A stretch of 64,000 nt of DNA from IMG/VR virus record IMGVR_UViG_3300043424_000625, positions 1 through 64,000 of that record; one strand, written 5' to 3'. The DNA is from an uncultured virus (IMG/VR IMGVR_UViG_3300043424_000625) (taxonomy: Duplodnaviria > Heunggongvirae > Uroviricota > Caudoviricetes). The translations under genes were made by a program, and so were the position numbers. A model generated the notes under the pieces. That model was not told the DNA's origin and made no database searches. It was given only the letters and a program-made list of their open reading frames with translations. Below are positions 24,465-58,391 of the stretch, one piece after another (position 1 is the stretch's first letter; every line of letters starts with the position of its first letter).

Positions 24465-25487
24465 ATGAATAAAAGCGTTCTTTACTCGTTCTCACTTGAG
24501 TTGCAAAAACAAGCTGGGATTTCTTCGGCTACCCCCTCTGCGCCAGAGGCACAGGAGCCAAAGAAAAAAAATATCATACAAAGAAACTTCACGGGTCCGG
24601 GCGTGGTTCTCCCCGCAATCGGAGGTTTGGTAGCTGGTGCGGCCCTACTTCGTAATCCTAGCGGGGCCGGTAAGCTCTTTACGGCAGCTAAGGAAGTAGC
24701 GACTAAGCCCGTTCAAAGTATTAAGCGCGGGCTGTCAAGCGGAGCCAGCTTCGCAGGAAATAATGCCGACGAGTTTACTCAGGGGGCTGCTAGGTCTAAA
24801 CGCGTGGAGCTTATGAATGAGGCCTTTGAAAACGCGCTTGATGGCACTGCAACACAGTTTGACGCGTTATCAGATACGGCTGGAGCAGCCCGCAAGGGAG
24901 GATGGGCAAGCGCAGGCGAAAGGTCCTCTGGTGGGCTGACTGGATTTTTTAACAAAGATCCGAAGTTTAACGCTAGCGACAACTTAAGATCTAAAATTAC
25001 AAGCATCATGGATCGCCAGCGCGCGGGAGAAATGATTCCAGAGGAAGAGTTGCTTGACGCGTATCGGCAGATCGGCCAAGAAGCTGGCGCACAGAACGTA
25101 AAATTACGCGGGGGCATCTCCACGTATATGCCAGGCGAGCGGGCGATTGAGGTCGGCCAGGTGGGAGTCACTGGTGTCGCCAACGCGCTCCCCTCCACCG
25201 ACGATGAGGGCAATGAGCGTGGTGTTGCGGAGAGGCTCGCTCGTGGCCTAACTGCTGCGGGTATCACCGCTGGAACGGCTCATCTATTTACCGGTAGAAA
25301 CTTAGGATTAGGTAAATCTAACTTGATCACAGGCGGAAAGAGGTCTTTCCTAAGCCAGAAACTGATCGTTCCGTCAGCGGTAGGGATGGCAGCAGTTCCA
25401 TTTGAAGGACTGGCTTCTGACGTTACAGGATCTGCTGGCTCTGTCTTAGACAGAGCATTCGGTCAGGGAAAGGATGAGCAGTCATGA
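24465..25487 (+). CDS. Leader-KxA protein with Gly/Ala-rich hydrophobic segments (candidate virion cargo)
   Basis: N-terminal FSLELQKQAG; segments VVLPAIGGLVAGAALL and GLTAAGITAGTA; visibly more AT-rich than the portal gene. Confidence 0.6.
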   Translation: MNKSVLYSFSLELQKQAGISSATPSAPEAQEPKKKNIIQRNFTGPGVVLPAIGGLVAGAALLRNPSGAGKLFTAAKEVATKPVQSIKRGLSSGASFAGNNADEFTQGAARSKRVELMNEAFENALDGTATQFDALSDTAGAARKGGWASAGERSSGGLTGFFNKDPKFNASDNLRSKITSIMDRQRAGEMIPEEELLDAYRQIGQEAGAQNVKLRGGISTYMPGERAIEVGQVGVTGVANALPSTDDEGNERGVAERLARGLTAAGITAGTAHLFTGRNLGLGKSNLITGGKRSFLSQKLIVPSAVGMAAVPFEGLASDVTGSAGSVLDRAFGQGKDEQS

Positions 25488-27520
25488 ACGTCATTACCAG
25501 CGAAGTAAACCGTTTTAATCCGAGGCCAGTCACCACTGAGGGTGGCCGAGGATTCGGCATTCGCTATCCGTCGCCGTTCTTTGACATCTCTCAGCAGTTC
25601 CTTCCATCTAATCAGCACGAACTACACAAGTGGTGCCGGTATTACTTCTTGACAAATCCGGTGATCAACGCCGCGTGCTCCAAAATGGCAGAGTACCCGG
25701 TCACCCCTCTTATTTTTGAGACAGACGACCCGGAGGTGATGAAGCTTTATAAGAAGGTAGAGGATCACCTCAAGCTGCGCTCATTTCAGGTCGAGGTCGG
25801 GCTCGACTACTTCGTATACGGAAACGCCTTTGTCTCGGTGTTCCTGCCGTTCGAGAAGTACCTCATCTGTGCTTCCTGCGGCGCACGCTACCGTGCCAAG
25901 ACCAACAGATTCCGCTACAAGTGGCGTGACTCTCGTTTCTACCTTCACAAGTGCGACTGTGGCCACGAGGGCTACGCGAAGCAGCACGATGTCTACGTTC
26001 GGAGCTTCCGCCAGATTCGCCTGGTTCGGTGGAATCCAGAGAACATCGACATCAAGCACAACGAGATTACTGGAAAGACCAAGTACTACTTCCGCCTACC
26101 CAAGAGCGTGATCAACGACATCAAACTTGGAGACTGCGACGAGATTGAGTCGCTTCCCCTCGAGTTCCTTGAAGCCGCCCGCGCGAACAAGTCACTCCTC
26201 TTTTCGGAGGACAACCTCTACCATCTGAAGCGACCGACGATCGCCCAGAAGGATCAAGGCTGGGGCACGCCCCTGATCTTCCCGCTTCTGAAGGATGCGT
26301 TCTACCTCCAGGTCATGAAGAAGGCCAACGAGGCAATCCTCATGGAGAACATCGTTCCCATGCGGATGATCTTCCCGGGCCAGAACACTGGAGGCAACGA
26401 GGGGCCCTACGGGGCCTACAACCTGACGAACTGGAAACGTCGGGTAGATGAAGAAATCAACATGTGGAAGCGGGATCACAACTACATCCCGGTCCTTCCT
26501 GTCAACATCGGATTCCAGCAGATCGGTGGACAAGGTCGCGCCCTGTTGATGTACCAAGAGATGCGTCTTCTGGCTGAGCAGATGCTTGCTGGCGCCGGCA
26601 TTCCTGTGGAGTTCATCTTCGGAGGACTCCAGTGGTCTGGATCGAGTACCTCGCTCCGGGCACTGGAAAACATGTTCCTGGGGTACAACAAGCAGCGCCA
26701 CGAGCTGATCAACGTCTTCATCATGGGTAAGATTGCCTCCTTCATGGAGTGGCCCAAGGTCTCGTCGAGATTCGACAAGTTCCGTATGGCTGATGACTTG
26801 CAAAGAAGCATGTTCTACCTCCAACTCAACCAGGCTCAGAAGATCAGCGATCATCGCCTCATGGAAGAACTTGGGGAGGATTTCGATCTCGAGTCGGAGC
26901 GCATGCGCGAAGAGATCAAGAAGCAGCTTCAGTCCAATCGCCGCATGCAGGTCGCTTCGGCAGATATTCAGGGAGAAGCCCAGCTTCGGACCTCACGCTA
27001 CCAAGCCAAGGCGCAGGCCCTGACCATGCGCGCACAGGGCCAGGTACAAATGGAGATGCAGCAGGCAGCGCAGCAGGCTGCCGCACAGCAGCAAGCGCAG
27101 GGCGCAATGCCGCAAGACCCGGCCGCTCAGCAGGGACCCGCTGGAGATCAGGCTCAGCAAACTCCTGGGCTTCCAGAAGGAGCTACCGCCTACGATGAGA
27201 ATGCGGCCACTCCGAATCAGGATGGAATGCCCGCCGCTATGGCGTCTGCCCAGTCACCAATCCAGCCTGGGTCAGGGGGTGTGGACCTGCGGTACATCGC
27301 GCAGCGCGCAGCATCGTTCTTACGCATGCTAAAAAAAGAACAGGGCGAAGAAGCCATGTATCAAGCTCTTCAGCAAATGCAGATGGAGAATCCTCCGTTG
27401 TATCAGCTGGTTATCCAACTAATGAATGACCGCGGCTCGCAGATCGATCCTCTCAACGCGCAGCAAAATCCGGCACCTAACGGAACGCCACAGGCTGACC
27501 CAGGAAGAGCAATCGGCTGA
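25484..27520 (+). CDS. Portal protein with zinc-ribbon insertion and Gln-rich C-terminus
   Basis: YF.TNPVINAAC.KMAEYP, DYFVYGNAF, LYHLK...WG.PLI, AGIPVEFIFGG portal pattern. Confidence 0.75.
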   Translation: MNVITSEVNRFNPRPVTTEGGRGFGIRYPSPFFDISQQFLPSNQHELHKWCRYYFLTNPVINAACSKMAEYPVTPLIFETDDPEVMKLYKKVEDHLKLRSFQVEVGLDYFVYGNAFVSVFLPFEKYLICASCGARYRAKTNRFRYKWRDSRFYLHKCDCGHEGYAKQHDVYVRSFRQIRLVRWNPENIDIKHNEITGKTKYYFRLPKSVINDIKLGDCDEIESLPLEFLEAARANKSLLFSEDNLYHLKRPTIAQKDQGWGTPLIFPLLKDAFYLQVMKKANEAILMENIVPMRMIFPGQNTGGNEGPYGAYNLTNWKRRVDEEINMWKRDHNYIPVLPVNIGFQQIGGQGRALLMYQEMRLLAEQMLAGAGIPVEFIFGGLQWSGSSTSLRALENMFLGYNKQRHELINVFIMGKIASFMEWPKVSSRFDKFRMADDLQRSMFYLQLNQAQKISDHRLMEELGEDFDLESERMREEIKKQLQSNRRMQVASADIQGEAQLRTSRYQAKAQALTMRAQGQVQMEMQQAAQQAAAQQQAQGAMPQDPAAQQGPAGDQAQQTPGLPEGATAYDENAATPNQDGMPAAMASAQSPIQPGSGGVDLRYIAQRAASFLRMLKKEQGEEAMYQALQQMQMENPPLYQLVIQLMNDRGSQIDPLNAQQNPAPNGTPQADPGRAIG

Positions 27521-27522
27521 CC

Positions 27523-27777
27523 TCAGCGAGTGAGATCGGCCGGTCTCTTCCTGGGCTGGTCGATCTGGATACCACTGTATAGACCGTCAAGAATTTCTCG
27601 CGCGTTGTCCACGAAGCACTTTTCGTGGAACATCGCCTCGCTTCCGAAGGTTGAGAAGGTTTCGTCCTCAATGTCCCACTTGCGGGGACGACGTACAACA
27701 CGATGCCGCGCCAGGCTGACCATGCGGTCATCTGTCGTGGCAGTCGCGTCGCACCAGTCGCATCGAAACGGAATCAT
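27523..27777 (-). CDS. Small hypothetical protein (CxxC...HxxC)
   Basis: 84-aa ORF convergent with portal, coupled to the upstream ORF. Confidence 0.5.
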   Translation of the reverse strand: MIPFRCDWCDATATTDDRMVSLARHRVVRRPRKWDIEDETFSTFGSEAMFHEKCFVDNAREILDGLYSGIQIDQPRKRPADLTR

Positions 27778-28232: not shown

Positions 28233-28242
28233 CTACTCTCCT

Positions 28243-34650: not shown

Positions 34651-34680
34651 GTCACCATGGACAAGATCGCCGCCTACCAA
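34651..34680 (+). repeat. 30-bp leader repeat, copy 1 (second copy 39524-39553)
   Basis: GTCACCATGGACAAGATCGCCGC(C/T)TACCAA, 29/30 identical. Confidence 0.9.
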
Positions 34681-35166
34681 GAAGCTCTACTCCGCAATGA
34701 ACTCGAAAAGAGGGCATCTGTTCTCGTCGAGAGGTACGGAACATGCGATGGACAGCTCCCTGCTCCATACGCGCAAGCATTCATGGAAATGGAAAAGGAG
34801 GCCCTTCTTGCAGATGTCGGCAAGGCCGTAACTGGAGGTGTTTACCGTGCTGGTAAAGCAATTGCAGGTGCGGGAGGTGCGGGTGTCTCAGGTTCTCGGA
34901 CTGGTCTTGGTGGCCGCATGATGGACTGGGCTTCCAGTAGGGGAGGCAAACTGACGAGCGGAGCTACAGACAGACTACTTGCTAATGTTAACCAGCGTGC
35001 GGCAGAACGGGGTCTTGGTCCCGTTTCGCTGAGACAGCTCGACGTGGCGAGAACGCAGGGACAGCAACTGCTGGGTGGGGCGGCCCTTACTACAGCGGGT
35101 GCGGGTGCCCTGGGGACAGGTTATTTAGGGTACAACGCCCTAAAGAATAGACGTCCGAATCAATGA
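34657..35166 (+). CDS. MDKIAAYQ-leader protein with C-terminal Gly-rich hydrophobic helix
   Basis: MDKIAAYQ..ELEKRAS..MEKEA; ends LLGGAALTTAGAGALGTGYLGYNALKNRR. Confidence 0.65.
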   Translation: MDKIAAYQEALLRNELEKRASVLVERYGTCDGQLPAPYAQAFMEMEKEALLADVGKAVTGGVYRAGKAIAGAGGAGVSGSRTGLGGRMMDWASSRGGKLTSGATDRLLANVNQRAAERGLGPVSLRQLDVARTQGQQLLGGAALTTAGAGALGTGYLGYNALKNRRPNQ

Positions 35167-46215: not shown

Positions 46216-47334
46216 ATGTACGGCAGTCCGATCACCAAAGAGTATCTCCAAGGTCTCGCTCATGCGGCGACCTCGGACTTCCTGTCCAGAGGTACTCCGC
46301 TGACAGAGGCCGTAATCAAGCAGGCAAGTGCCTGTGGCGCAAACTTGACAGCTGAGCATGTTCGGCGTATCTGCGAGATGACGTACCACGACACTTACGA
46401 GCGGATGCACAAGCAGGCTTCCAGCGCCGATCGGTACATCGTCTTCGACCCTCCGGATGCAGAAGTCGCAGCCGAGGTTCTTCGCGCGGAGAAGGTCGCA
46501 TCGGCGCCTAAGCGCGCAACTTCTTTGTCCGGTGGTGTTATGACAGAAAAAACTGCATCTGCATCCGCGCCGAGACTCCCGAAGTTCAAAGCAGCTAATG
46601 CCTTTGACGAGCTGATGAAGTCTGCGTCGGACACCGACTACAGTGCTCCGTTTGCGCAGGCACAGGGCCTTCATGATCTCAAGAAGATCCATGACTCTTT
46701 GAAAGAGGCATCAGCCGCGGTGACTGCGGAACTCAGATCGCTCGATACGGAGATCATGTCCGCGAGGCGCGAGCTATCCAAAGAGGCCTACGCCGCAGTG
46801 AAGGACGGCGTGTCCGTAGAGGACGTTCTTCATGCCTGCTTCGAGGGCACAGACTGGAGCTCCACATCCCAGGAGACCGCGACCAAGGTCGCATCAGATC
46901 TCTCGGCGTACCTGCTTGGAAAGGAGCGGACGACTGCTGGGCTTCGGCTGACGAAGACCGCGTCCTTCGGAGAGATTAATCCGGCGCACCCACTTCCTGC
47001 CTCATTCTCAAAGGTGGCGGCGGTGGAGGAGCGGCACATTCACCTTGAGATCGCGTTGCGCGATATTCAGGCCGATCTTGAGTATGCAAACAAGGCACTG
47101 ACAGAGTCTCTGTTTGGTGAAAAGACGGCTGGGCTAGGCAAGATTGTGAGTAAGGCTCCAGCTGCTGCTGTTCGCGGTGCAATGATGATAGGGAAGATGG
47201 TTGCAAAGTCTCCCTCTACTGCCTTAAAATACGTTGTCGGGGCAGGTTTACCAGTAGCTGCGGCATATGGTGTTTATAAGGTCCGGCAGAAGTCCAAAAA
47301 GTCAACCCTAATTGACGACGGGGGTGGAGAATGA
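46216..47334 (+). CDS. KxAS-rich protein with C-terminal amphipathic/hydrophobic basic tail
   Basis: Eight KxAS motifs; after EKTAG a tail ending YVVGAGLPVAAAYGVYKVRQKSKK. Confidence 0.65.
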   Translation: MYGSPITKEYLQGLAHAATSDFLSRGTPLTEAVIKQASACGANLTAEHVRRICEMTYHDTYERMHKQASSADRYIVFDPPDAEVAAEVLRAEKVASAPKRATSLSGGVMTEKTASASAPRLPKFKAANAFDELMKSASDTDYSAPFAQAQGLHDLKKIHDSLKEASAAVTAELRSLDTEIMSARRELSKEAYAAVKDGVSVEDVLHACFEGTDWSSTSQETATKVASDLSAYLLGKERTTAGLRLTKTASFGEINPAHPLPASFSKVAAVEERHIHLEIALRDIQADLEYANKALTESLFGEKTAGLGKIVSKAPAAAVRGAMMIGKMVAKSPSTALKYVVGAGLPVAAAYGVYKVRQKSKKSTLIDDGGGE

Positions 47335-47876
47335 CAGTTCGAGTTCCTACAGAAGCGTACGCTGCCTATGCGCGCGGAGAGCTGAGTCATTCGGAACTTC
47401 TGGGACTGGAGAAGATGGCGTCTGACATGAGCAAGACCGCCCTCAATATTAGTCCACAGTCTCTGGCCAGTCTTGGCGGGCTACTTGTAGCAGCTCCGAC
47501 GCTCTCGTACGCTGGTGCTCAGATACCGGAAGCTTTACAGAGTGCGGAATCTGCACTAATGTTTAACCGAGACCTACGCAGGGTTGTCGCAGTTAATCCG
47601 CAGCTGGGATCGCCTGAGGATCCGAATCTCCGCATGGCGTTTAAGACTCTGAGAAGTGTTAACCCAGAATATTCTAAAGATCCGCTTATTGCCGGTACGA
47701 TTCTAGATATGGTTATGACAAACCGTATGGATCCAGACGACCCGACAAGCCCGCCGCGGTTCGACCCTGCTCTTCTTCAGAGCATCCAATCGAGAGGAAA
47801 TCCCGCTGTCGATGCCGCAAGACAGGCCGGCGCCAAGAGCACTGCCATGCCACTCTCTGCAATGCTCGCCCCGTAA
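47331..47876 (+). CDS. Leader-KxA protein (181 aa)
   Basis: LEKMASDMSKTA followed by hydrophobic LASLGGLLVAAP. Confidence 0.6.
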   Translation: MTVRVPTEAYAAYARGELSHSELLGLEKMASDMSKTALNISPQSLASLGGLLVAAPTLSYAGAQIPEALQSAESALMFNRDLRRVVAVNPQLGSPEDPNLRMAFKTLRSVNPEYSKDPLIAGTILDMVMTNRMDPDDPTSPPRFDPALLQSIQSRGNPAVDAARQAGAKSTAMPLSAMLAP

Positions 47877-49771
47877 TGGAAAAGTACTCGCTGTTTTCTG
47901 GAAAGTCTGAGTCCGGCTCTCCTCTGATCCACAGAGTAGAGCCCGGCTCGTCGTATGGACTATCCGAGACAGATGGACTTGCGAAGACTGCCTCTGGAGA
48001 GCACCTTCCCGAAGTGATTGAGCTGATTGAGTCGATCCAGGCCCAGCCTGGTCGTCTCTATCTGGTCAACTCGGCGTTAGGGGCAGGCGAGTGCGTAGGG
48101 TTCAACCTACGCGGAGACTGGTTCACCGAGGCGGGGCTGCGCCGGACACCTCCGGGTTTTGAGCAGATTCCCGTGTGGGACATCGACGCCCGAAGGCGCG
48201 CTGCAAACCAAACAGAAGCCCTCCCACAGTGGGGATCTCTCACCTGGGGCTACCCGACGTTCTATAACGCGCACCGCTTCCGGCATCATATCAACAAAGA
48301 TCCCAATAGAGCATACGGCTTCATCTTAGGTGCATTCTGGGACGACCGCATGAAGCGCGTCATCCTAGTGTCCGAGTTGATTCGAGAGATGTGTGCTCAG
48401 CAGGGCGCCATGGATCTTTACTCTCGAATCGAGGCCGGAGAGTTTCCAGACTCGAGTATGGGCAGCAAGGTCCCCTACGATCGATGCTCGATTTGCGGGC
48501 ACATTGCGCGTACGCCGATGGAATACTGCAAGCACGTCCAGCGGGGTGCCCCTCCTCCGTATGGCATGAAGGCGATGCTGCCCGATGGCCGGGTCTGCGG
48601 CGTCTACAATGACTATCCAAGATTCTTTGATGACTCTTTCGTGTTTGTCGGAGCCGAGCGTTCCGCAAAGTTGATGTCCAACGTAACCCCGCTGGTGCGT
48701 GGGCAAAACGCGTACTCGCAGACGATTTACCCCTTTCAGCCTATTGTCGTGAAGACAGCGAGTGCTCCTGCGCCGGAAGCTCCTCAGATCCCGGACCACG
48801 TCCTTGAAGAAAGACTGTCGCACGCGCTGTCCACCATTCCAACGTCATCCTCGTTGGAGAGAGAGGCTCTCCGCTATTACATGCAGGAGAGGCTGGCAGA
48901 GGAGCGCCTGGTACAGGGAACGCTGACTTCAGCAGAGTTTAACTTGTGGAAAGAGGTTTCTAATAGAGTTTTCCAAAGGAGATACGGAGTCCTCCCTTCG
49001 CAGATCACACATCTGAAGATTCTTTTCAATAATCGTGTTGACGATTTGTTCGGTGTGAAGGTTGCTTCGTTTTCCAAAGTTGCAGAGATGCTAAAGCGCA
49101 TCCCTGCTCCCTCTGCATCTCAGATGAGTTTGGTGCGCAAAGAGGAGATGTGCCTACCTGAGCTTCCTCGCGATGTGCTCGATGCGATTGCAGAGAACCC
49201 TGGACCCAATCTTCGCGCGGCAGCAAGGCTTGGGGTCGTTCTCCGCCCGCGCGAGTTCATGCGGGTGATGATCGTTCGCAAGGACCCAGATTTAGCGGAC
49301 GATCTATACAAAAACAATCAGGTCTTCGCACAGCGTCCTATTCGTATGTCATCATCTCCCTTCAATGCAGCCTCCTTTGTTCCGGAGGATGCGATGAGCG
49401 CGATGATCAATCTACTCAGCCCGCTTCTTCAAGGCCGGTCTTTTGCACCATCAGCCATGCGCGCTCGCATGGTGATCCGAGTGTCCCCGCCTCCGATAGA
49501 GGAACCGGAAGAAGTAGACGGATTAGAGGAGATCGCGGATCTCTACAACGCGTACAGACTGGGCTTGATCGATAATAAGCCTGACTTGAGTGCCGTATCG
49601 GTCCCAGGAGCCTTCGCGCCCCGGATCGAAGACGATGTAAAAATTGCAGATGATGCGATTGCGCTATCAAACATCATGCTGCATGTTGCCTACTGGCCCG
49701 GTCTTAGATTAGGATTGGCTCACGAGGCTGAGGGATCCACTCCCGAAGACGCCCCCTCTATTCACACCTAG
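47876..49771 (+). CDS. Prohead maturation protease (HK97 gp4/assemblin-fold-like) with zinc insert
   Basis: N..GDWF, FRHH.N......G.I, SMGS.V..D.CSICG...YCKH, FFDDSFV..GA...A; upstream of the capsid gene. Confidence 0.6.
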   Translation: MEKYSLFSGKSESGSPLIHRVEPGSSYGLSETDGLAKTASGEHLPEVIELIESIQAQPGRLYLVNSALGAGECVGFNLRGDWFTEAGLRRTPPGFEQIPVWDIDARRRAANQTEALPQWGSLTWGYPTFYNAHRFRHHINKDPNRAYGFILGAFWDDRMKRVILVSELIREMCAQQGAMDLYSRIEAGEFPDSSMGSKVPYDRCSICGHIARTPMEYCKHVQRGAPPPYGMKAMLPDGRVCGVYNDYPRFFDDSFVFVGAERSAKLMSNVTPLVRGQNAYSQTIYPFQPIVVKTASAPAPEAPQIPDHVLEERLSHALSTIPTSSSLEREALRYYMQERLAEERLVQGTLTSAEFNLWKEVSNRVFQRRYGVLPSQITHLKILFNNRVDDLFGVKVASFSKVAEMLKRIPAPSASQMSLVRKEEMCLPELPRDVLDAIAENPGPNLRAAARLGVVLRPREFMRVMIVRKDPDLADDLYKNNQVFAQRPIRMSSSPFNAASFVPEDAMSAMINLLSPLLQGRSFAPSAMRARMVIRVSPPPIEEPEEVDGLEEIADLYNAYRLGLIDNKPDLSAVSVPGAFAPRIEDDVKIADDAIALSNIMLHVAYWPGLRLGLAHEAEGSTPEDAPSIHT

Positions 49772-49781: not shown

Positions 49782-50762
49782 GTGTCTCTACTCGCAGAAC
49801 TACAAACCCGGGGCATCACGGCAGAAGATCTCGAAAAAGCAGCTTCTGTTCGCCTTTTTGAGAAAGCCGCCGCCGCCGAGGGTGTAAACCTCGATGATCT
49901 GAGCGAAACACAGGTCACATCTCTATTCAACCAGTTCGTTTCCCGTTCCGCCCCGTCCACCAAAGAGGCATCTGCCATGAACAACGAAGTTATCGACCTC
50001 TTCGAAAAGACCGCTTCTGCCGAAGGCATCGATCTAGACGACATGAGTGATGCAGAGCTGGCTCAGCTCTTCAATCACTACGTCGAGAATGTTCTCCCGG
50101 AACAGCTTGCAGAGGCTGAGGGTCAGGACAAGGAGGCCATGGTCCAGGATGCACACGAGAAGCTCGCTGAAGCAGAGATTCTTGGTCGTCACATGGCTCG
50201 TGCATATGCCGATGAGATCCAGAAGATCGCAGAAAAGCCTCCTATGGGCCTCGGCAAGAAGATCGGTCTCGGCTTAGGCGCCACCGGCTTGACGGCCGCG
50301 GGCGTCTACGGCGGCAAGAAGCTGTACGATCGCCGCAAGGCGCGCAAAGCTGCTATGCAGGCTGATGCTGAGGAAACATCCTCTGAAGCTGAGAAGCAGT
50401 CGTCTGCACTAAACCTTGCGGCACTGGTCAAGATCGCGAGTGTCTACGGCTTTGACGTCGGCATGAAGGTTGCCGAAGAGGCATCCGCCGCAGCCGATGC
50501 GGCGGATGCAGTGGCGGATGCCGCCAAGGCTGCCCCCTCGTCGATGGGCCTCGGCAAGAAGATCGGTCTCGGCTTAGGCGCCACCGGCTTGACGGCTGCG
50601 GGCGTCTACGGCGGCAAGAAGCTGTACGATCGCCGCAAGGCTCGTTTGCAGGCCATGCAGGCGCCTGCGGAAGAGGCTCCTTCTGAGGCTGAGAAGCAGT
50701 CGTCGGCGTTTGTCGACGCCCGCGCAGTCCAGCTTCTCCGCATGGCCGGCTACAACATCTGA
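49782..50762 (+). CDS. KxA-rich scaffold-like protein carrying a duplicated cationic Gly-rich peptide
   Basis: Two LFEK.A.AEG..LDD.S..E...LFN repeats; MGLGKKIGLGLGATGLTAAGVYGGKKLYDRRKAR twice. Confidence 0.7.
   Translation: MSLLAELQTRGITAEDLEKAASVRLFEKAAAAEGVNLDDLSETQVTSLFNQFVSRSAPSTKEASAMNNEVIDLFEKTASAEGIDLDDMSDAELAQLFNHYVENVLPEQLAEAEGQDKEAMVQDAHEKLAEAEILGRHMARAYADEIQKIAEKPPMGLGKKIGLGLGATGLTAAGVYGGKKLYDRRKARKAAMQADAEETSSEAEKQSSALNLAALVKIASVYGFDVGMKVAEEASAAADAADAVADAAKAAPSSMGLGKKIGLGLGATGLTAAGVYGGKKLYDRRKARLQAMQAPAEEAPSEAEKQSSAFVDARAVQLLRMAGYNI
50244..50641 (+). repeat. 98-bp direct repeat, copies 300 bp apart (50244-50341 and 50544-50641)
   Basis: One mismatch (50297 C vs 50597 T); degenerate similarity continues about 60 bp further. 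Confidence 0.95.
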
Positions 50763-51104: not shown

Positions 51105-52343
51105 ATGAGCAACTACAGAAGCATGATTGACCAAGCCCTAGAAGCTGCTCGTGCGCGTTCCCACACGGCGATTGAAGCCGAGAAGACTGCATCCCGCCCC
51201 GGCTCCTCCTTGGTCAAGGAGGCACAGGAGGTCGCAAGTGCGCTCGAGTTCGTTTCTCTGAGTGCAACGGGTGGAAACCGGGCAGACGGATTTCGTCAGG
51301 AAATGATTAGGGACTTCTACAAGAGCGCCATGGCAAGTCCCGCACAGGGCGCCACCTCTACCAGCGGAGTCCAAGGCGTAGCGCCGACAGAAGGGAAGAC
51401 TCGGATTGCACCGAAGGGCCTGGTCACGGGTAATAGCCCTGTCAGCGGCTCCGTGACGGCAAACACTCGTGACGGCGAGAAGCCGCTACGGGAATCGTTT
51501 AAGCAAGCGGGTGGCCAGTCTCTCTACGACATCCTGATGAACAATAAGACCGCTGGTGTTGGCGGCCCTGCGGAATCCGACGCGGAAACCCTGTCCGGAG
51601 TTACGTCCGCTAACGAAAACTCAACCTACCGGGCTACTTTGCATTCAAACGAAGGGCCTGTCCTTGCAAACAAGCGTAACTTGAAGAAGTCTACGAGAGC
51701 TCGGCTTGCAGAGGCGTTCGCACATGTGGGAGATACCCTCGGCGATGCGAGCGCAGCGCAGATCTTCCCTCTCGCGGCTCGGATGGGGCACCTGAAAGAT
51801 GCGGCAGCTAGAGTGAAGAAGAGGATGACTCCGGACAACATAAATCGGCTGCCAGCGGACAAGAGAGAGAAAATTGTAGATTGGCTCATGAGCAGCCCCG
51901 ATAGTGGTAGACTGGCCTTCGACGAGGCAATGGATGAGATAGCTAAAAATGATCCCGACCTGTTCGCCCAAATGGAGGGGTTTCCTGCTGAGATACCTCC
52001 TCATCCATCGGAAAGGTACATTCCAGGCAGGGTTGGCAGGCCTGGATGGCCGGAGGTGCCAGCAGCTGCTGTGGATATGAGCTCTGCGCCGGCGTCGGTG
52101 CCAGCAGCTGCTGTGGATATGAGCTCTGCGCCGGTGGAGGCTGCGGAAACACTCGGGCGATCAATGGACGCTGCTCCGAACCAGGGAATGGGGAGATTCC
52201 TTACCCGCAGAAACCTTGGGCTGGCCGCAGGCGCCGCCGGGCTCGCTACAGCGGCGGGAGTGGGAGCCCACCTCTATAGAAAGCGTTCGGCGGCAGATCG
52301 TCTTAGGCAGATGCAGGCAGAGGGCGTCCAGGGAGGAGAGTAG
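51105..52343 (+). CDS. KxA-rich protein with C-terminal Gly/Ala hydrophobic helix
   Basis: EKTAS, VKEA, YKSA, FKQAG, NKTAG; ends LGLAAGAAGLATAAGVGAHLYRKR. Confidence 0.65.
   Translation: MSNYRSMIDQALEAARARSHTAIEAEKTASRPGSSLVKEAQEVASALEFVSLSATGGNRADGFRQEMIRDFYKSAMASPAQGATSTSGVQGVAPTEGKTRIAPKGLVTGNSPVSGSVTANTRDGEKPLRESFKQAGGQSLYDILMNNKTAGVGGPAESDAETLSGVTSANENSTYRATLHSNEGPVLANKRNLKKSTRARLAEAFAHVGDTLGDASAAQIFPLAARMGHLKDAAARVKKRMTPDNINRLPADKREKIVDWLMSSPDSGRLAFDEAMDEIAKNDPDLFAQMEGFPAEIPPHPSERYIPGRVGRPGWPEVPAAAVDMSSAPASVPAAAVDMSSAPVEAAETLGRSMDAAPNQGMGRFLTRRNLGLAAGAAGLATAAGVGAHLYRKRSAADRLRQMQAEGVQGGE
52055..52134 (+). repeat. Tandem duplication, 42-bp period (VPAAAVDMSSAP x2)
   Basis: 38 identical bp at 52055-52092 and 52097-52134. 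Confidence 0.95.
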
Positions 52344-53991: not shown

Positions 53992-55122
53992 ATGGACTAC
54001 TCCGCAGATATGGTGAACTCGGGCTTCATTGAGCGCCTCGAGACCGAGGGTCCAACGAAGACCGCAGCCGCCTCTCTCAACTACATCAAGGACCGCCTCC
54101 GCGAGTCCAGCTTCGCCGACATGATCGTTCCGAACGAGCGTGTTGTGCGTGGCGACCTTCAGCGTTCCACCGAGCATGACACGCTCGTGAAGATCGTGGA
54201 CATTGAGCCGGGCTCCCGGGCGATGGCCGTGAACTTCCGCGGTCAGCCGACGGCTGAGTACGTGAATGGCAAGCGGTACGCCATCTCCTTCTTCACCATC
54301 TCGTCCCTCAAGTTCGAGATCGTTGAGCAGGAGCTGATGGCCTACGAGATGCCCATCACGCGCATCATCGAGGAGAACAGCCTCAAGGACATGGTCGAGG
54401 TGAAGGATCGCGAGTTCCTGAACCACGTCGAGTCCTGCGTCAACGCCATGCAGGCCGAGGGCAACTCTGGCTCTGCTGCCTTCTCTGTCGCCGGTGGCCA
54501 GCTCACCGTCTCGAAGATCAAGGGCGTTCTCGCGACCCAGTCGGGCGGCTCGGCCACGGACTTCGACGTGTACGCGATTCAGCGCGCTGACATCGTGAAC
54601 ATCAAGAAGCTCCTGAAGCGCCAGATCGTCGTCGGCAGTGAGACCATCCGCGCTGGCCGCCTGCGGCCCGCTCTGATGCTCATGACCGAGAGCGATGCGG
54701 ACGATTTCGACCAGTGGACCCACGAGGACTACGGCGATCGTCTCCAGAGCGAGACGGCGCTCGATGGCTACACCTACAACAAGGTGTTGGGCCTTCGGAT
54801 CATCCGGACCATCAAGAACGACATCCTCCGCGAGGGGAACGTCTACGTCTTCACGGCCCCGGAGTTCTTCGGCCGGAACTACACGCTGAACGACGTGAAG
54901 TTCTACATCGACAAGGTCGCGAACCGCATCTTCTGGCAGGCCTGGATGGACGTCGGCATGGGCTTTGGCAACATCGCCGCCGTCGTCAAGCTCGAGCTCT
55001 ACCCGGGCGATGCGACAGACGCCAGCGCCACGTCGGTCATCCCTGTTGAGGAGAGCGCCATCGGCGCGCTCAACAACAAGGTCGCTGAGGGCCTGACCTT
55101 CCCGAACATCAACGTCTTCTGA
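53992..55122 (+). CDS. Major capsid protein
   Basis: Very strong codon bias, AGGAG RBS, followed by a terminator; 376 aa between scaffold and neck genes; IKDRLRE.SF...I, D.EP.S.A, K...E..D..F patterns; KTAA at residues 23-26. Confidence 0.8.
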   Translation: MDYSADMVNSGFIERLETEGPTKTAAASLNYIKDRLRESSFADMIVPNERVVRGDLQRSTEHDTLVKIVDIEPGSRAMAVNFRGQPTAEYVNGKRYAISFFTISSLKFEIVEQELMAYEMPITRIIEENSLKDMVEVKDREFLNHVESCVNAMQAEGNSGSAAFSVAGGQLTVSKIKGVLATQSGGSATDFDVYAIQRADIVNIKKLLKRQIVVGSETIRAGRLRPALMLMTESDADDFDQWTHEDYGDRLQSETALDGYTYNKVLGLRIIRTIKNDILREGNVYVFTAPEFFGRNYTLNDVKFYIDKVANRIFWQAWMDVGMGFGNIAAVVKLELYPGDATDASATSVIPVEESAIGALNNKVAEGLTFPNINVF

Positions 55123-56233: not shown

Positions 56234-56733
56234 TGTCCTTTGAGAGCACTACAGTCATTCCCTCGGCGAGCAAGAGGATGAACGAGGTCGTGGCGATGAT
56301 TCGCCTCTACCTGCGCGACTTCCCCGAACTCAATCGTCTGATCTCTGGCGAGGAGACCAGCGATCGCATGATCGCGTGGGCAGTTGTGGACGCCATCGAC
56401 GACTACAACTCGACTCCACCGTTCATTGGGAATGTAGGGCTCAAGAACTTCCCCTCCCTCAGCATGCTGAGGGAGGCGGCAGTCATTCGCATTCTGGAAT
56501 CAGTCGGACTCCTTCAGCTGCGGAACCAGATGAACTACTCGGACGGAGGAATCTCCGTCTCGGTGTCTGACAAGTCTCAGTTCTTGATGGGCTGGATTCA
56601 GATGCTCCGCAATTCCTACGAACAAAAGAAGATGCGGGTGAAGTCTTCGCTGAACGTAGAGTACGCCTTCGAAGGCGGTGGTGTAGAGTCTGAGTACTTC
56701 GTCATCAATGGCGTCTACTTCTCGAACTTCTGA
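56233..56733 (+). CDS. Probable head-tail adaptor (neck) protein
   Basis: Position after capsid; helical, IRLYLRD...A.DDYN..PP...YSDGGISVS. Confidence 0.55.
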   Translation: MSFESTTVIPSASKRMNEVVAMIRLYLRDFPELNRLISGEETSDRMIAWAVVDAIDDYNSTPPFIGNVGLKNFPSLSMLREAAVIRILESVGLLQLRNQMNYSDGGISVSVSDKSQFLMGWIQMLRNSYEQKKMRVKSSLNVEYAFEGGGVESEYFVINGVYFSNF

Positions 56734-57220
56734 GGCTTCCGTGGAAGATCTATTTACCAATCCCCATTCGGATATTCCGGACGCTCTGTGGAAGTCGGCA
56801 TCTCCTATGGAGCGCCAGCTTGCTGCTGTCGAGTACTGGGCAGAGCTTCGTGGTGCTGAGAAGACGGCCAGCGCGCGCCGTCTCCATAAATTGAAGGACT
56901 TCATCAGAGACAACCGTACGATTACCGGAGCTGCTGCGTTGCTGACGGGCGTGCCTGCTGGAGTCCTCACCTACAAGGGGACTGCTCCCAACGAGTCTGG
57001 ACTGACAAAACGAGAGCGTAAGAACTTGGTTACAGAGGCACAGTACAACCAGGCGGACAGTGTGGGAGATATTACGCCAGAATATAAGAAAAAGTTTCTG
57101 GAAATCAACCGGAAGATCGCAGAGCTTGAGAAGGAGAACCCGAAAGCATTTGCGGCCCTCTTTGGAACTGGTGTCGGGCTGGGGACTGCGGGCCTCATGC
57201 GATCCTCCTTGAGGAGCTAA
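56708..57220 (+). CDS. Leader-KxAS protein with two Gly-rich hydrophobic segments
   Basis: WKSAS..EKTAS; ITGAAALLTGVPAGVL and FAALFGTGVGLGTAGLM. Confidence 0.6.
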   Translation: MASTSRTSEASVEDLFTNPHSDIPDALWKSASPMERQLAAVEYWAELRGAEKTASARRLHKLKDFIRDNRTITGAAALLTGVPAGVLTYKGTAPNESGLTKRERKNLVTEAQYNQADSVGDITPEYKKKFLEINRKIAELEKENPKAFAALFGTGVGLGTAGLMRSSLRS

Positions 57221-57222
57221 AC

Positions 57223-58101
57223 GTGCTGCTGCTCCGTAACGAACGCGTTGTTTCTTTCTCCATAAATTACAATGACGTGTTCTGGGAGATCGAGCCGACC
57301 ACTGAGGACGTACAGCAGTACGAGTTTTATGTGGAACGCTCTGAGGCGGAGGCAGGTCCGTGGGACACGATTGCCGGCCCACTGATCGATCAGTATATGA
57401 TCCGAGACAACGCGGTTCATGCAATCACCACAAACGCGCGCACTCTTTTTTATCGGGTCCGGTGTCGACACGTTCCTACAGATCGTGTCGTCTACTCGGC
57501 GACATTTGACCGGGAAGGAAGCCCAAACATTCTAGCGACGGAGATGATCCGACTGGAGCGGGTGCTCTTTGAAGAGTTCGTGGGGGTTCGCTGCTGGCTC
57601 TTTCCCAGACGATCGTTTGGCCAACGGTGCCCAAACTGCTATGATTCCGTACTCGGAAAGACGGTAGATACTCGCTGCCCCACTTGTTGGGGCACTGGCT
57701 TTAGCGGGGGATACCACTACCCAACAGCCTTCTGGGCTCAGATTGATCCCGTTCCGGAGGCGGAGCAGGTATCAAGCGAGGATCACCGTAGAGTGCAGAT
57801 GGCGCAGCTTCGATGCGGACCAAGTCCGGCAATCAAGCCGTTAGATCTGGTTATAGATCATCAGAATAGACGATTTCGGGTGGTGGAGTCGGGAGGCACC
57901 TCCATGTCCGGGGTTCGTGTTCGAGCAGAGGTTAAGATGGTCCTTATCCAGAAAGGCTCTATTGAGGACAAGATTCCTTTAAAAGTGGACACATCGACGG
58001 TAGTATTATCTCCAAGACGTAATTTTCAAAATGCCCAGTCCCAGGAAGCATCCAAAGCCTCTGAGTTCGACGCATTCTCTCTGTATGGAGTACGATCATG
58101 A
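57223..58101 (+). CDS. Probable head-closure/neck protein with FN3-like N-terminus and zinc finger
   Basis: FYVERS...GPW.TI; RCPNCYD...CPTCWGTGF.GGY; neck position. Confidence 0.5.
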   Translation: MLLLRNERVVSFSINYNDVFWEIEPTTEDVQQYEFYVERSEAEAGPWDTIAGPLIDQYMIRDNAVHAITTNARTLFYRVRCRHVPTDRVVYSATFDREGSPNILATEMIRLERVLFEEFVGVRCWLFPRRSFGQRCPNCYDSVLGKTVDTRCPTCWGTGFSGGYHYPTAFWAQIDPVPEAEQVSSEDHRRVQMAQLRCGPSPAIKPLDLVIDHQNRRFRVVESGGTSMSGVRVRAEVKMVLIQKGSIEDKIPLKVDTSTVVLSPRRNFQNAQSQEASKASEFDAFSLYGVRS

Positions 58102-58391
58102 GTGACGAGCCAAAGAATAAAAGATCTGCGGATATTGCAGAGATCGTGGCGCTGCCGGCACTGGCGACAGGTGCCGGTACCTTGCTTGGAGGTATTGGAG
58201 GTGGACTACTTGCTCGCGAGGCCCTGCAGACTCCGGGTGTTGTCTCTCGCCTGGCTAGAATGAGTCCCACAAAGAGAGATCGTGTGTTGGCGGCAGTCTC
58301 TGGGCTGCTGGGCAGCGCGGCAGGCACGGCTGCTGGTGTTGGGTCATTCACGCTAGCTAAGCACCTTCAAGACAAATACGAGAATTCCTAG
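58098..58391 (+). CDS. Small glycine-zipper membrane-type protein
   Basis: ATGAGTLLGGIGGGLL and GLLGSAAGTAAGVG. Confidence 0.6.
   Translation: MSDEPKNKRSADIAEIVALPALATGAGTLLGGIGGGLLAREALQTPGVVSRLARMSPTKRDRVLAAVSGLLGSAAGTAAGVGSFTLAKHLQDKYENS

What the first reader, a model, noticed from the sequence alone, without database searches (positions are those of the whole stretch)
24465..58391. Family of glycine-zipper membrane-type modules placed immediately after KxA sites
Seen: at least eleven genes (24465, 34657, 36260, 39530, 40099, 46216, 47331, 49782, 51105, 56708, 58098) encode GxxxG/small-residue hydrophobic helices, often ending Y-K/R-K/R. They are mutually dissimilar, mostly follow a KxA site (58098 lacks a clear one), and are scattered between core morphogenesis genes; several look more AT-rich than the core genes. 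None has an obvious signal peptide. Known: glycine zippers drive helix oligomerisation in pore-forming bacteriocins and toxins, and phiKZ-like phages enclose the injected genome and virion RNAP in a membrane vesicle. Inference: soluble pro-forms are packaged, unmasked by cleavage and insert into the host membrane on ejection (DNA/RNAP conduit, protective vesicle, or superinfection-exclusion/anti-defence effectors). The variety suggests a polymorphic repertoire.
Basis: partly seen in the sequence, partly recalled or inferred. Interest (0 to 1): 0.85.

Follow-up and report, generated by a model that had tools for sequence, protein, structure and literature searches.

The report
Protease-tagged glycine-zipper phage head proteins
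An uncultured large contractile-tailed phage encodes about a dozen fast-changing head-region proteins with glycine-rich, weakly greasy helices. They also carry a short Lys-x-Ala-Ser tag that is probably the cutting site of the phage's own head protease, so they look like packaged and injected cargo, but neither cutting nor action on membranes has been shown.

Summary
The core observation holds. All eleven ORFs exist and carry Gly-rich, uncharged helix-type segments: 10 strict segments in 31 head-module proteins against 1.06 in shuffles. K-x-A-S is strongly over-represented: 37 against 4.4.

Four details fail or need changing:
- The segments are not "immediately after" the sites. Distances in the window run from 23 to 137 aa, and across relatives proximity is no better than random placement.
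- Total GC does not differ; only GC3 is lower.
- Three proteins share an N-terminal leader, so they are not all dissimilar.
- The phage is not phiKZ-like. Its nearest named relatives are Vibrio phage D69 and Salmonella phage Arash.

Best reading: K-x-A-(S/A/G) marks sites of a T4 gp21/herpes-type head protease. The glycine-zipper parts are swappable add-ons C-terminal to conserved sites. They evolve much faster than flanking genes. They resemble the membrane-embedded C-terminal hairpin of P22 ejection protein gp7 without being homologous. Arash counterparts were detected in virion preparations.

Membrane action is plausible but unproven. The main rival is a herpes-like, assembly-only hydrophobic tail. 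I rate this a new variant of a known kind.

The parts
24465..25487 (+). g24465, 340 aa, directly upstream of the portal gene. It has K-Q-A-G at residue 15 and the most hydrophobic Gly-rich segment of the set, at residues 41-60.
   Evidence: Translation. Kyte-Doolittle 19-aa maximum is 1.81. Identity to relatives is 37-50% where the portal is 78-96%. It is fused to the upstream gene across a K-T-A-G junction in 4 of the 6 relatives printed (L056, L057, L059, L063).
34657..35166 (+). g34657, 169 aa. It has an MDKIAAY-type leader, E-K-R-A-S at residues 17-21, and Gly-rich segments at 65-80 and 137-162 followed by a basic C-terminus.
   Evidence: Identity is 61% in L044, where the RNAP C-terminus is 98% identical, and 34-40% in four other distinct loci.
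36260..37873 (+). g36260, 537 aa. The N-domain (about residues 1-180) is conserved and carries E-K-M-A-S at 16-20. The rest is variable, with four Gly-rich segments and a Cys motif.
   Evidence: Residues 1-177 are 85-98% identical in relatives and the remainder is not alignable. The relatives printed carry two separate genes here.
39530..40090 (+). g39530, 186 aa. It has the MDKIAAY...HPLW-E-K-T-A leader and two Gly-zipper segments (73-107 and 116-136).
   Evidence: Together with g40099 it is absent at this position in L041, L042, L043, L045, L048 and L049, where the two flanking genes abut.
40099..40650 (+). g40099, 183 aa. It has a leader paralogous to that of g39530 and a two-helix Gly-zipper hairpin (60-86 and 87-112).
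   Evidence: BLASTP to g39530 gives E 3.6e-7. Pfam Gly-zipper_Omp scores 15.8 bits (cut-off 25) and P22_gp7 13.4 bits (cut-off 28). Only 6 clusters were found in 5.8 billion proteins, none named.
46216..47334 (+). g46216, 372 aa, a core or scaffold-like protein with 8 K-x-A-S sites. A cationic hydrophobic tail of about 70 aa follows a final E-K-T-A-G site.
   Evidence: In alignment A1 of 19 orthologues, K35/A37, K112/A114 and K266/A268 are invariant. The tail is present in 7 of 19, differs in each, and always starts after an LFG-[ED]-K-x-A-[SG] or LFS-E-K-x-A-G junction.
47331..47876 (+). g47331, 181 aa, translationally coupled to the protease gene. It has E-K-M-A-S at 27-31, a hydrophobic segment at about 42-60, and then a conserved helical domain.
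   Evidence: 24 distinct orthologues. In the AF2 model, the N-helix and the domain at 70-140 are confident (pLDDT 84-96), while the hydrophobic segment is not (48-58). It matches Arash gp221 weakly (E 5e-4) at the same position.
47876..49771 (+). Putative head maturation protease, 631 aa. The N-domain (about residues 1-270) is conserved and the C-terminal part is variable.
   Evidence: PHROG 18299 'head maturation protease' E 1.5e-4. The AF2 model has pLDDT 63.7. Its best structural match is T4 gp21 5jbl_B: Z 5.1, rmsd 4.3 A, 123 aligned, with the next row at Z 3.6. Herpesvirus proteases score Z 2.5-3.3. H137, H138, S194 and G196 are invariant, and K37/A39 are nearly invariant.
49782..50762 (+). 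g49782, 326 aa, an acidic scaffold-like protein. It has 4 K-x-A-S sites and two copies of a Gly-zipper-plus-basic-cluster module.
   Evidence: A 101-nt direct repeat is 98% identical and spaced 300 nt apart (50244-50344 and 50544-50644). Identity to L022 is 56% over 46% of its length, where the MCP is 100% identical.
51105..52343 (+). g51105, 412 aa. The N-domain (about residues 1-235) is conserved and carries E-K-T-A-S at 25-29. The C-terminal extension is variable and ends in a Gly/Ala-rich helix (371-390) with a basic cluster.
   Evidence: Among 22 distinct orthologues, the conserved part mostly ends in an L/M/I-K-[VIT]-[AS]-[SAG] motif, and the extension after it ranges from about 10 to about 520 aa.
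56708..57220 (+). g56708, 170 aa. It has K-S-A-S at residue 29, E-K-T-A-S at 51-55, and hydrophobic segments at 71-89 and 145-168.
   Evidence: Identity to L022 is 42%, while its neighbours are 100% and 90% identical. In distant relatives the same slot holds proteins of 335-705 aa with several K-x-A sites, one with a ferritin-like domain.
58098..58391 (+). g58098, 97 aa. It has two conserved Gly-zipper helices (18-40 and 66-86) joined by a polar linker, and no K-x-A site.
   Evidence: Nine orthologues share 28-46% identity and conserve the small-residue pattern. Three distant ones carry E-K-x-A sites in added termini. Identity to L022 is 44%, against 90% and 99% for its neighbours.
53992..55122 (+). 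Major capsid protein, 376 aa, with K-T-A at residues 22-24 near the N-terminus.
   Evidence: PHROG 2522 E 2.2e-4. K-x-A is kept at this position in 27 of 28 distinct orthologues down to 37% identity.
37961..39463 (+). g37961, 500 aa, a conserved head-module protein with 5 K-x-A-S sites.
   Evidence: Identity to relatives is 69-89%.
22592..23686 (+). g22592, 364 aa, the first gene of the + strand module, with 6 K-x-A-S sites.
   Evidence: Identity to relatives is 53-97% and the motifs are retained in the printed sequences.

Best explanation
The window is the head-to-tail module of an uncultured contractile-tailed phage of roughly 185 kb. It belongs to a barely studied clade that also holds Salmonella phage Arash and Vibrio phage D69.

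The proposed mechanism has three parts.
1. The head proteins carry a Lys-x-Ala-(Ser/Ala/Gly) motif. I read this as the recognition site of the phage's own T4 gp21/herpes-assemblin-type prohead protease (g47876).
2. The eleven named proteins are prohead-core or internal head proteins, not one homologous family. Conserved N-terminal parts, or a portable leader of about 20 aa of the MDKIAAY...HPLW-K-x-A type, would take them into the prohead.
3. Downstream of conserved K-x-A junctions sit variable, often cationic extensions. These contain glycine-zipper helices or two-helix hairpins that are duplicated, swapped, gained and lost between close relatives.

After protease cutting, the Gly-zipper pieces would stay with the DNA and leave through the tail at infection. 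Their marginal hydrophobicity would keep them soluble until they oligomerise. By analogy with P22 gp7*, they could then enter a host membrane.

Shown here: motif enrichment, conservation of motif positions, modularity and turnover, a weak protease fold match, and likeness in composition and hydropathy to the gp7 hairpin.

Inferred: cleavage at the motif, packaging in this phage, ejection, and any membrane activity.
For: MOTIF
- K.AS occurs 37 times against 4.4 +/- 2.2 in 31 head-module proteins.
- None occurs in the 2116-aa RNAP, the 1256-aa sheath or the large terminase, and only 1 occurs in the - strand block 8091-22511.
- The same enrichment appears in the D69 head module (20 against 4.3, maximum 11 in 300) and in Arash (16 against 3.9, maximum 9 in 300).

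CONSERVATION OF MOTIF POSITIONS
- g46216: three K/A pairs are invariant in 19 sequences.
- MCP N-terminus: 27 of 28 sequences keep K-x-A.
- Protease N-terminus: K37/A39 are kept in at least 90% of 22 sequences.
- g51105: both junctions are conserved.

PROTEASE
- PHROG hit.
- T4 gp21 is the top structural match, Z 5.1.
- Arash gp222 is 34% identical, E 8e-34.
- Herpesvirus assemblins cut after Ala; YLQA-T and VQA-S are quoted in passages of PMC4498786.

MODULARITY
- g46216 tail: present in 7 of 19 orthologues, all different.
- g51105 extension: 10 to 520 aa.
- g39530 and g40099: missing at their position in 6 of the 8 non-identical related loci.
- Leader proteins: 17 distinct, with unlike cargo, at several genome positions.
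- Module duplication inside g49782.

RATE OF CHANGE
Against L022 (MCP 100% identical):
- The six named genes covered are 42-83% identical.
- Of the other 10 genes in that table, 7 are 90-100% identical. The other three are 87%, 73% and 50%.

P22 gp7 PRECEDENT
- The record notes that the N-terminal 20 aa are removed.
- The C-terminus is Gly-rich. Its 19-aa hydropathy maximum is 1.31, inside the range of the window segments (0.97-1.81).
- Passages report that 12 copies place two helices each in the outer membrane.

VIRION DATA FROM A RELATIVE
- Table 2 of the Arash paper lists three proteins in which I found Gly-rich segments:
  - Gp213: 93% coverage, 143 spectra.
  - Gp221: 100% coverage, 355 spectra.
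  - Gp224: 100% coverage, 222 spectra.

PFAM
- 15 of 92 Gly-rich proteins of relatives hit the Pfam glycine-zipper families at E <= 0.01. One passes the curated cut-off.
Against: - No cleavage product, virion proteome or membrane assay exists for this phage.
- The Arash particles were purified on a sucrose gradient only. 116 proteins were called structural, many of them enzymes, and the authors themselves allow carry-over.
- Gp221, Gp223 and Gp224 are listed at 100% coverage. Peptides on both sides of the putative sites were therefore seen, which does not fit simple loss of a propeptide. The one supplement I could read holds only the gene table.
- Gly-rich segments are no closer to upstream sites than random placement would put them.
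- Hydropathy is marginal. None looks like a classical transmembrane helix. No transmembrane predictor was available.
- The K-x-A site of g47331 lies inside a helix that the model places with high confidence.
- The protease fold match is weak: Foldseek E 0.17 and model pLDDT 63.7.
- A contractile-tail phage has no obvious need for a podovirus-type ejection conduit.
- g47331, g58098 and g24465 are fixed-position genes across the clade.
Confidence: 0.5

Rival explanations
1. Assembly-only role, as in herpesviruses. The hydrophobic Gly-rich tails would be the parts by which scaffold and core proteins bind the inner face of the capsid shell or each other. Cutting at the K-x-A-S site upstream of the tail would free the scaffold so that it can leave. 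The tails would have no function after assembly.
For: - In herpesviruses, M-site cutting near the scaffold C-terminus removes a tail (37 aa in PrV) and frees the scaffold from the major capsid protein. The paper's reference list cites work on a minimal hydrophobic domain needed for that binding (passages and references of PMC4498786).
- The tailed proteins g46216, g49782 and g51105 flank the protease and lie upstream of the capsid gene.
- They carry 4-8 K-x-A-S sites (g51105 has 1 strict K.AS and 5 K-x-A-[SGAQ]), as expected of proteins that are broken down.
- The protease is of the same fold class, though the match is weak.
Against: - The tails differ completely between phages whose capsid protein is 100% identical, and 11 of 19 g46216 orthologues lack any tail.
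- Some relatives carry several modules in one protein.
- Stand-alone leader-plus-hairpin proteins exist that have no scaffold part.
Confidence: 0.25
2. The proteins are not packaged. They would be membrane proteins acting in the infected cell: holin-like or pinholin-like proteins, superinfection exclusion factors, or anchors that hold prohead assembly at the inner membrane until the protease releases it.
For: - g58098 is 97 aa with two weakly hydrophobic Gly/Ala-rich helices and charged ends. That resembles small two-helix holins (a resemblance from recall).
- Several modules sit at the extreme C-terminus next to basic clusters, like tail anchors.
- T4 proheads start on the membrane (recalled, not checked here).
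Against: - All lie inside the head-to-tail late module and most carry the head-specific K-x-A motif.
- Arash counterparts were detected in particle preparations.
- Hydropathy is below that usual for co-translationally inserted helices.
- No lysis genes were recognised next to them in Pfam or PHROG scans of 38 products.
Confidence: 0.12
3. The segments have no specific function. They would be low-complexity Gly/Ala-rich linkers in fast-drifting, poorly constrained head proteins, and their co-occurrence with K-x-A sites would only reflect that both are common in this module.
For: - Proximity to sites is no better than random.
- Basic flanks are equally common on both sides.
- Sequences are poorly conserved, and lower GC3 suggests weak codon selection.
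Against: - Segments are about ten-fold enriched over composition-preserving shuffles.
- The small-residue period-4 pattern and segment positions are kept in g58098 and g47331 orthologues at 28-68% identity.
- The feature recurs in D69 and Arash at about 25% capsid identity.
- One module was recently duplicated, with 98% nucleotide identity.
Confidence: 0.08

Closest known systems
Phage T4 internal proteins and prohead core proteins (IPI-III, Alt, gp67, gp68, gp22), loaded through a capsid targeting sequence and cut by prohead protease gp21
   Same: - A shared short N-terminal leader sits on otherwise unlike proteins (3 of the 11 here; 17 distinct in relatives).
- Small core genes sit just upstream of the protease, and scaffold-like genes lie between the protease and the capsid gene.
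- The protease's best fold match is gp21.
- The cargo is polymorphic.
The T4 side of this comparison is from my own knowledge and from listings and abstracts only.
   Different: - The motif is K-x-A-(S/A/G), not the Glu-directed site of T4 (recalled).
- The cargo is glycine-zipper and hydrophobic.
- Modules are also appended C-terminally to conserved core proteins.
- PHROG and Pfam scans found no sequence match to T4 families.
Phage P22 ejection protein gp7 (Pfam PF25688)
   Same: - It is a packaged protein whose N-terminal 20 aa are removed (record note).
- It has a C-terminal Gly-rich two-helix arm of the same marginal hydropathy.
- That arm is reported to sit in the host outer membrane as a 12-mer together with gp20 (passages).
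   Different: - There is no homology: BLASTP E 8.5, and Pfam 13.4 and 10.5 bits against a cut-off of 28.
- gp7 is cut by a host protease, per the record note.
- P22 is a short-tailed phage that needs a conduit, whereas this phage has a sheath.
- Here there are about a dozen such proteins rather than one.
Herpesvirus assemblin and the scaffold M-site with its C-terminal capsid-binding tail
   Same: - Cutting occurs after Ala, before Ser or Thr, near the scaffold C-terminus, and releases a hydrophobic tail.
- The protease fold class is shared, weakly (Z 2.5-3.3).
- The protease carries a long C-terminal extension in the same ORF.
   Different: - Lys is the fixed residue two positions before the Ala.
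- There are tens of sites in more than ten proteins.
- The tails vary while the capsid protein stays identical.
Head-protein processing and ejection proteins of phiKZ and SPN3US
   Same: A large myovirus in which many head proteins are processed at one short motif, and with virion-associated RNA polymerase in a relative (Arash). The phiKZ/SPN3US side is from abstracts and from recall.
   Different: - No detectable relation by capsid protein search.
- There is one fused beta/beta' RNAP ORF rather than split subunits.
- The motif differs.
Pfam glycine-zipper 2TM families (PF13488, PF13441, PF05433; SlyB/Pcp-type lipoproteins)
   Same: A period-4 Gly pattern in a two-helix hairpin. g40099 matches PF13488 at E 0.013, and 15 of 92 relatives' proteins match the clan at E <= 0.01.
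   Different: - Only 1 of 92 passes the curated cut-off.
- There is no lipoprotein signal.
- The context is a phage head module.

Membership tests
T4-type protease-processed internal head proteins (functional class) | The phage encodes a gp21/assemblin-fold prohead protease | tested here: inconclusive
   PHROG 18299 E 1.5e-4. 5jbl_B scores Z 5.1, rmsd 4.3 A, 123 aligned, and stands 1.5 above the next row. However, model pLDDT is 63.7, Foldseek E is 0.17, and a PDB profile search found nothing.
T4-type protease-processed internal head proteins (functional class) | A shared N-terminal targeting sequence on unrelated cargo | tested here: met
   The MDKIAAY...HPLW-K-x-A leader is on 3 of the 11 window proteins and on 17 distinct proteins across loci, with unlike downstream parts. 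That it targets proteins to the capsid is inferred.
T4-type protease-processed internal head proteins (functional class) | Cleavage at the consensus site, and presence in virions | not testable with these tools
   There are no data for this phage. Arash counterparts are listed in a virion proteome of modest purity.
T4-type protease-processed internal head proteins (functional class) | Sequence homology to T4 IP, gp67 or gp68 families | tested here: not met
   None of the 11 proteins has a PHROG or Pfam family match.
P22 gp7 family (PF25688) | Profile match at the curated cut-off | tested here: not met
   13.4 bits (g40099) and 10.5 bits (g39530) against a cut-off of 28. BLASTP E 8.5.
P22 gp7 family (PF25688) | A Gly-rich two-helix arm able to enter a membrane | tested here: inconclusive
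   Two adjacent Gly-zipper segments occur in g40099 (60-86, 87-112), g39530 and g58098. Hydropathy is in the gp7 range. No membrane test was possible.
Pfam glycine-zipper 2TM clan (PF13488/PF13441/PF05433) | Profile match at the curated cut-off | tested here: not met
   In the window, the best score is 15.8 bits against a cut-off of 25. Among relatives, 1 of 92 passes and 15 of 92 match at E <= 0.01.
phiKZ-like phages (Chimalliviridae) | Capsid and terminase relatedness; split virion and non-virion RNAP subunits | tested here: not met
   A capsid tblastn search found only 3 Vibrio phages at 25% identity. The RNAP is a single 2116-aa beta/beta' ORF. A megablast search found no match.
phiKZ-like phages (Chimalliviridae) | Nucleus-shell protein and PhuZ tubulin | not tested
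   The record is about 41% complete, so absence would not be informative.
Leader-bearing class II bacteriocins and microcins | A double-glycine leader with a dedicated peptidase-transporter and an immunity gene | tested here: not met
   The leaders end in K-x-A, not Gly-Gly. No peptidase or ABC-transporter family was found among 38 window products.
Small two-helix holins | A small protein with two membrane helices, placed in a lysis cassette | not tested
   Only g58098 fits by size and helix count. It lies between neck and sheath genes. No lysis cassette was identified, and no predictor was available.

The most novel reading that the evidence does not exclude
This clade of RNAP-carrying myoviruses is unrelated to phiKZ. 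In this reading, its phages pack a variable set of protease-released cationic glycine-zipper peptides that are shot into the cell ahead of or with the DNA. The peptides would co-assemble in the inner membrane into a phage-made structure. That structure could be a channel, a depolarising pore, or a membrane-bounded shelter for the incoming genome and the injected polymerase. The module turnover between near-identical phages would then reflect an arms race with host envelope-level defences or exclusion systems.
Probability: 0.12. Interest if true: 0.85.

Novelty: new variant of a known kind. Interest (0 to 1): 0.55.

Why it matters
Three points would matter if the reading holds.

First, it would define a second kind of head-protease code in large phages: Lys-x-Ala then Ser, closer to herpesvirus assemblin than to the Glu-directed cuts of T4 and phiKZ. 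That code could be used to predict processed virion proteins in a whole clade. I found 38 related loci in IMG/VR and cultured members in Salmonella and Vibrio.

Second, it would show that capsids can be loaded with swappable modules bounded by protease sites. That is of interest both for phage-host conflict and for engineering cargo into capsids.

Third, it offers a testable route to an open question: what travels with the DNA in RNAP-carrying phages, and whether such proteins act on membranes. Arash and D69 are culturable, so the decisive experiments are ordinary ones.

I found no paper describing glycine-zipper virion cargo of this kind. The search on 'glycine zipper', 'phage', 'virion' and 'membrane' returned 2 unrelated titles. 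The search on 'glycine zipper' and 'DNA pilot protein' returned 0. Only open-access full texts and bioRxiv were searched.

Tried and rejected
UNAVAILABLE OR DELAYED TOOLS
- Complex prediction (4 copies of g58098 with alignment A3) was unavailable. Self-association and tail-to-capsid binding are therefore untested.
- Structure prediction was not ready. It worked later.

SEARCHES THAT FOUND NOTHING USEFUL
- ESM Atlas for g40099: no usable feature hit. Its own model is poor (pTM 0.25) and its structural neighbours are meaningless.
- PDB profile search with the protease alignment: 0 hits at E <= 10.
- Foldseek with the g47331 model: nothing below E 1.7.
- Megablast of 20 kb against phage records: no match.
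- Rfam on the whole window: 0 families.
- The scan's notes by place and by sequence: nothing.
- The Arash supplement I could read holds only the gene table, with no peptide lists. The other supplement was too large to read.

IDEAS TESTED AND DROPPED
- 'Immediately after a site' was tested and rejected.
- 'More AT-rich' was rejected for total GC.
- I first took the + strand ORFs 27530-27802 and 27825-28277 as genes. Conservation shows that the real genes there are on the - strand. The one K.AS site in 27825-28277 should therefore be dropped from the count.
- I considered an internal lipid membrane, as in PRD1-type phages, and set it aside. The capsid, portal, sheath and terminase genes are those of an ordinary tailed phage, and nothing tested bears on lipids.

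Full report
WHAT THE WINDOW IS

The window is the first 64 kb of a 75.6-kb IMG/VR virus record rated about 41% complete. From 22592 to the end, the + strand carries a head-to-tail module:
- a portal-like gene, 25484-27520 (31% identical to Arash 'portal protein' gp204, E 3e-93);
- a single 2116-aa fused beta/beta' RNA polymerase, 28299-34649 (Pfam Rpb2_6, Rpb1_2 and others);
- large terminase, 43243-45024 (PHROG 675, E 1.8e-53);
- a putative head protease, 47876-49771;
- the major capsid protein, 53992-55122;
- a sheath, 59243-63013.

Megablast finds no phage record. By capsid protein, the only named relatives are three Vibrio phages (D69, D181, D148) at 25% identity. Direct comparison also ties Salmonella phage Arash to the clade through its portal, protease (34%, E 8e-34), capsid protein (27%, E 8e-28) and a neck protein. 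Nothing links the window to phiKZ.

IMG/VR holds 38 related loci around the capsid gene at 37-100% identity. Further loci surround g37961 and the portal.

CHECKING THE OBSERVATION

All eleven ORFs exist. Ten have orthologues or positional counterparts in relatives.

Gly-rich uncharged segments are enriched about ten-fold over within-protein shuffles: 10 against 1.06 +/- 1.00, maximum 5 in 1000. GxxxGxxxG occurs 22 times against 6.6.

The 'KxA site' is real and sharper than stated. K-x-A-S occurs 37 times in 31 head-module proteins against 4.4 +/- 2.2. The consensus is [L/F]-[E]-K-[T/V]-A-S-[A/V]. It is absent from the RNAP, the sheath and the terminase. One of the 40 sites counted lies in a + strand ORF that later proved spurious.

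Other details do not hold.
- Distances from the nearest upstream site to the Gly-rich segments are 23-137 aa in the window.
- Over 173 segments in relatives, proximity is no better than random placement: 10% against 15% within 20 aa.
- Basic residues flank both sides equally.
- Total GC is the same as in other module genes. Only GC3 is lower, 0.552 against 0.664, p 0.0015.
- Three proteins share a leader, and two of them are paralogues.

WHAT THE MOTIF PROBABLY IS

Motif positions are conserved where the flanks drift:
- three invariant K/A pairs in 19 g46216 orthologues;
- K-x-A at residues 22-24 of the capsid protein in 27 of 28 sequences;
- K37/A39 in the protease N-terminus;
- both junctions of the g51105 N-domain.

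The enrichment recurs in D69 (20 against 4.3) and in Arash (16 against 3.9). It is therefore a property of the clade.

The candidate enzyme g47876 has a conserved N-domain with invariant His137, His138 and Ser194. It has a weak PHROG protease hit. Its model's best structural match is T4 gp21: Z 5.1, rmsd 4.3 A, 123 residues, next row Z 3.6. Herpesvirus proteases score Z 2.5-3.3. The model is only moderate (pLDDT 63.7), and Foldseek alone is not significant.

Herpesvirus assemblins cut after Ala before Ser or Thr (sites quoted in PMC4498786, passages). A cut between the Ala and the Ser is therefore the natural guess. No cut has been measured.

WHAT THE GLY-RICH PARTS ARE

They are not one homologous family. 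They are a shared style of module that is added, lost, duplicated and replaced.
- g46216: 7 of 19 orthologues carry a C-terminal tail. Every tail begins after the same LFG-E-K-x-A-[SG]-type junction, and the tails are unalignable although the preceding 300 aa are 84-88% identical among the closest four.
- g51105: the extension after the conserved ...L-K-[VI]-A-S junction ranges from about 10 to about 520 aa and may hold several glycine zippers.
- g36260: it keeps residues 1-180 and varies beyond them. The relatives printed have two genes there.
- g39530 and g40099: they are absent at their position in six related loci where the flanking genes abut.
- Leader proteins: an MDKIAAY...HPLW-K-x-A leader of about 20 aa heads 17 distinct proteins with unlike downstream parts at several genome positions. 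One further copy lies in the unseen tail of this record.
- g49782: it contains a 98%-identical internal duplication of one module.

Against a contig with an identical capsid protein (L022), g56708 and g58098 are 42% and 44% identical, while their neighbours are 90-100% identical.

In distant relatives, the g56708 slot holds proteins of 335-705 aa with many K-x-A sites, one carrying a ferritin-like domain. A Gly-rich protein with a DnaJ domain occupies another slot.

By contrast, g47331, g58098 and g24465 are fixed-position genes throughout. The g47331 model shows a confident helical domain with the hydrophobic segment left unplaced (pLDDT 48-58).

HOW IT MOST LIKELY WORKS

The gene order is small core genes, then protease, then acidic multi-site proteins, then capsid protein. 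This order and the shared leader parallel the T4 head cluster and its capsid targeting sequence (my knowledge; listings only).

I therefore read the set as prohead-core and internal proteins. They would be brought in by conserved parts or by the leader, cut at K-x-A sites, and leave Gly-zipper pieces in the head.

The closest worked example for the Gly-rich part is P22 gp7.
- Its record notes removal of the N-terminal 20 aa.
- Its C-terminus is a Gly-rich two-helix arm with the same marginal hydropathy as the window segments.
- A 2026 preprint reports 12 copies placing 24 helices in the outer membrane (passages read).
- There is no homology: BLASTP E 8.5, and Pfam scores below cut-off.

Fifteen of 92 Gly-rich proteins of relatives touch the Pfam glycine-zipper families at E <= 0.01, and one passes the cut-off.

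Table 2 of the Arash paper lists Gp213, Gp221 (positional counterpart of g47331, E 5e-4) and Gp224 among particle proteins. It lists the RNAP beta subunit as the most detected protein.

WEAKNESSES AND RIVALS

The Arash preparation was purified on a sucrose gradient only and yielded 116 'structural' proteins. Coverage of 100% for Gp221, Gp223 and Gp224 shows peptides from both sides of the putative sites. The supplement I could read has no peptide lists.

No transmembrane predictor or complex prediction was available. Hydropathy alone would not call these helices transmembrane.

The main rival is a herpes-like, assembly-only role, in which a hydrophobic tail binds the shell or the core and is cut off to free the scaffold. 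Against it stand the complete divergence and frequent absence of tails beside an identical capsid protein.

I give lower odds to unpackaged membrane proteins of the infected cell and to functionless low-complexity linkers.

COMPARISON AND NOVELTY

Protease-processed internal head proteins and a membrane-inserting Gly-rich arm in an ejection protein are both known. What appears new, within the open literature I could search, is threefold:
- the K-x-A-S code;
- the portable leader;
- the scale and turnover of glycine-zipper modules C-terminal to conserved sites.

Earlier notes of this scan on related genomes reached similar readings, and one also found the site-to-helix proximity no better than chance. 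They are not independent evidence.

My verdict is a new variant of a known kind, of moderate interest. It is directly testable in Arash or D69.

Noticed in passing
window 28299-34649 (+): A single 2116-aa ORF fuses RNA polymerase beta and beta' domains. It sits inside the head module right after the portal region. In the distant relative Arash, the homologous beta subunit is the most detected protein in the particle proteome (3516 spectra). The polymerase may therefore be virion-borne in a clade unrelated to phiKZ.
   Followed up: partly
window 27523-27777 (-) and 27774-28094 (-): Two small - strand genes (84 and 106 aa, the second Cys-rich) lie between the portal and the RNAP. They are conserved in all 11 related loci (E down to 1e-63). 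The + strand ORFs there are spurious. As RNA, the + strand of 27521-28298 folds with z -6.7 against shuffles. I did not pursue this, and it may only reflect coding composition.
   Followed up: partly
L019:2660-5800 and L020:3159-6299: The protease orthologue is 1046 aa. Its alignment breaks right after the invariant Ser-Met-Gly, where a stretch begins that looks like an intein (by recall). This would mark the motif as the active site.
   Followed up: no
L036:13341-15398; L009:7021-7653: In relatives, head-module slots that hold Gly-zipper proteins also hold two proteins with recognisable domains. One has a ferritin-like domain (58.9 bits) and the other a DnaJ domain (32 bits). Both also have K-x-A sites and Gly-rich segments. 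This is reminiscent of encapsulin cargo.
   Followed up: partly
window 36260-37873 (+): g36260 looks like a fusion or deletion product of two genes that are separate in the relatives printed. Its second half keeps a conserved Cys motif of the C-x-x-C...C...C type, with a weak HiPIP-like Pfam hit (E 0.09).
   Followed up: partly
window 52055-52134 (+): There is a perfect 42-nt tandem repeat (1.9 copies) inside the variable C-terminal extension of g51105.
   Followed up: no
window 35163-36248 (+): g35163 (361 aa) has no K-x-A-S site. It is nevertheless only 51% identical to L041/L042 and L044, where neighbouring genes are 89-99% identical. It is a second kind of fast-evolving gene in the module, of unknown function.
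   Followed up: no
window 45526-46692 (-) against 46216-47334 (+): A 388-aa - strand ORF with an HTH domain overlaps the well-conserved start of g46216 by about 480 nt. The - strand gene probably starts further in. The neighbouring - strand ORF 45060-45503 has the most hydrophobic 19-aa window among the window ORFs scored (KD 1.97).
   Followed up: no
L050:1622-1960 (+), L050:6950-7291 (-), L050:9197-9835 (-): The last 11.6 kb of the same record hold three more proteins of the same kind. One is a 112-aa protein with K-T-A-G directly followed by a Gly-zipper helix. One is a 113-aa protein with the MDKMAAY leader. One is a 212-aa protein with K-T-A-S and E-K-Q-A sites. The set therefore extends beyond the head module.
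   Followed up: partly
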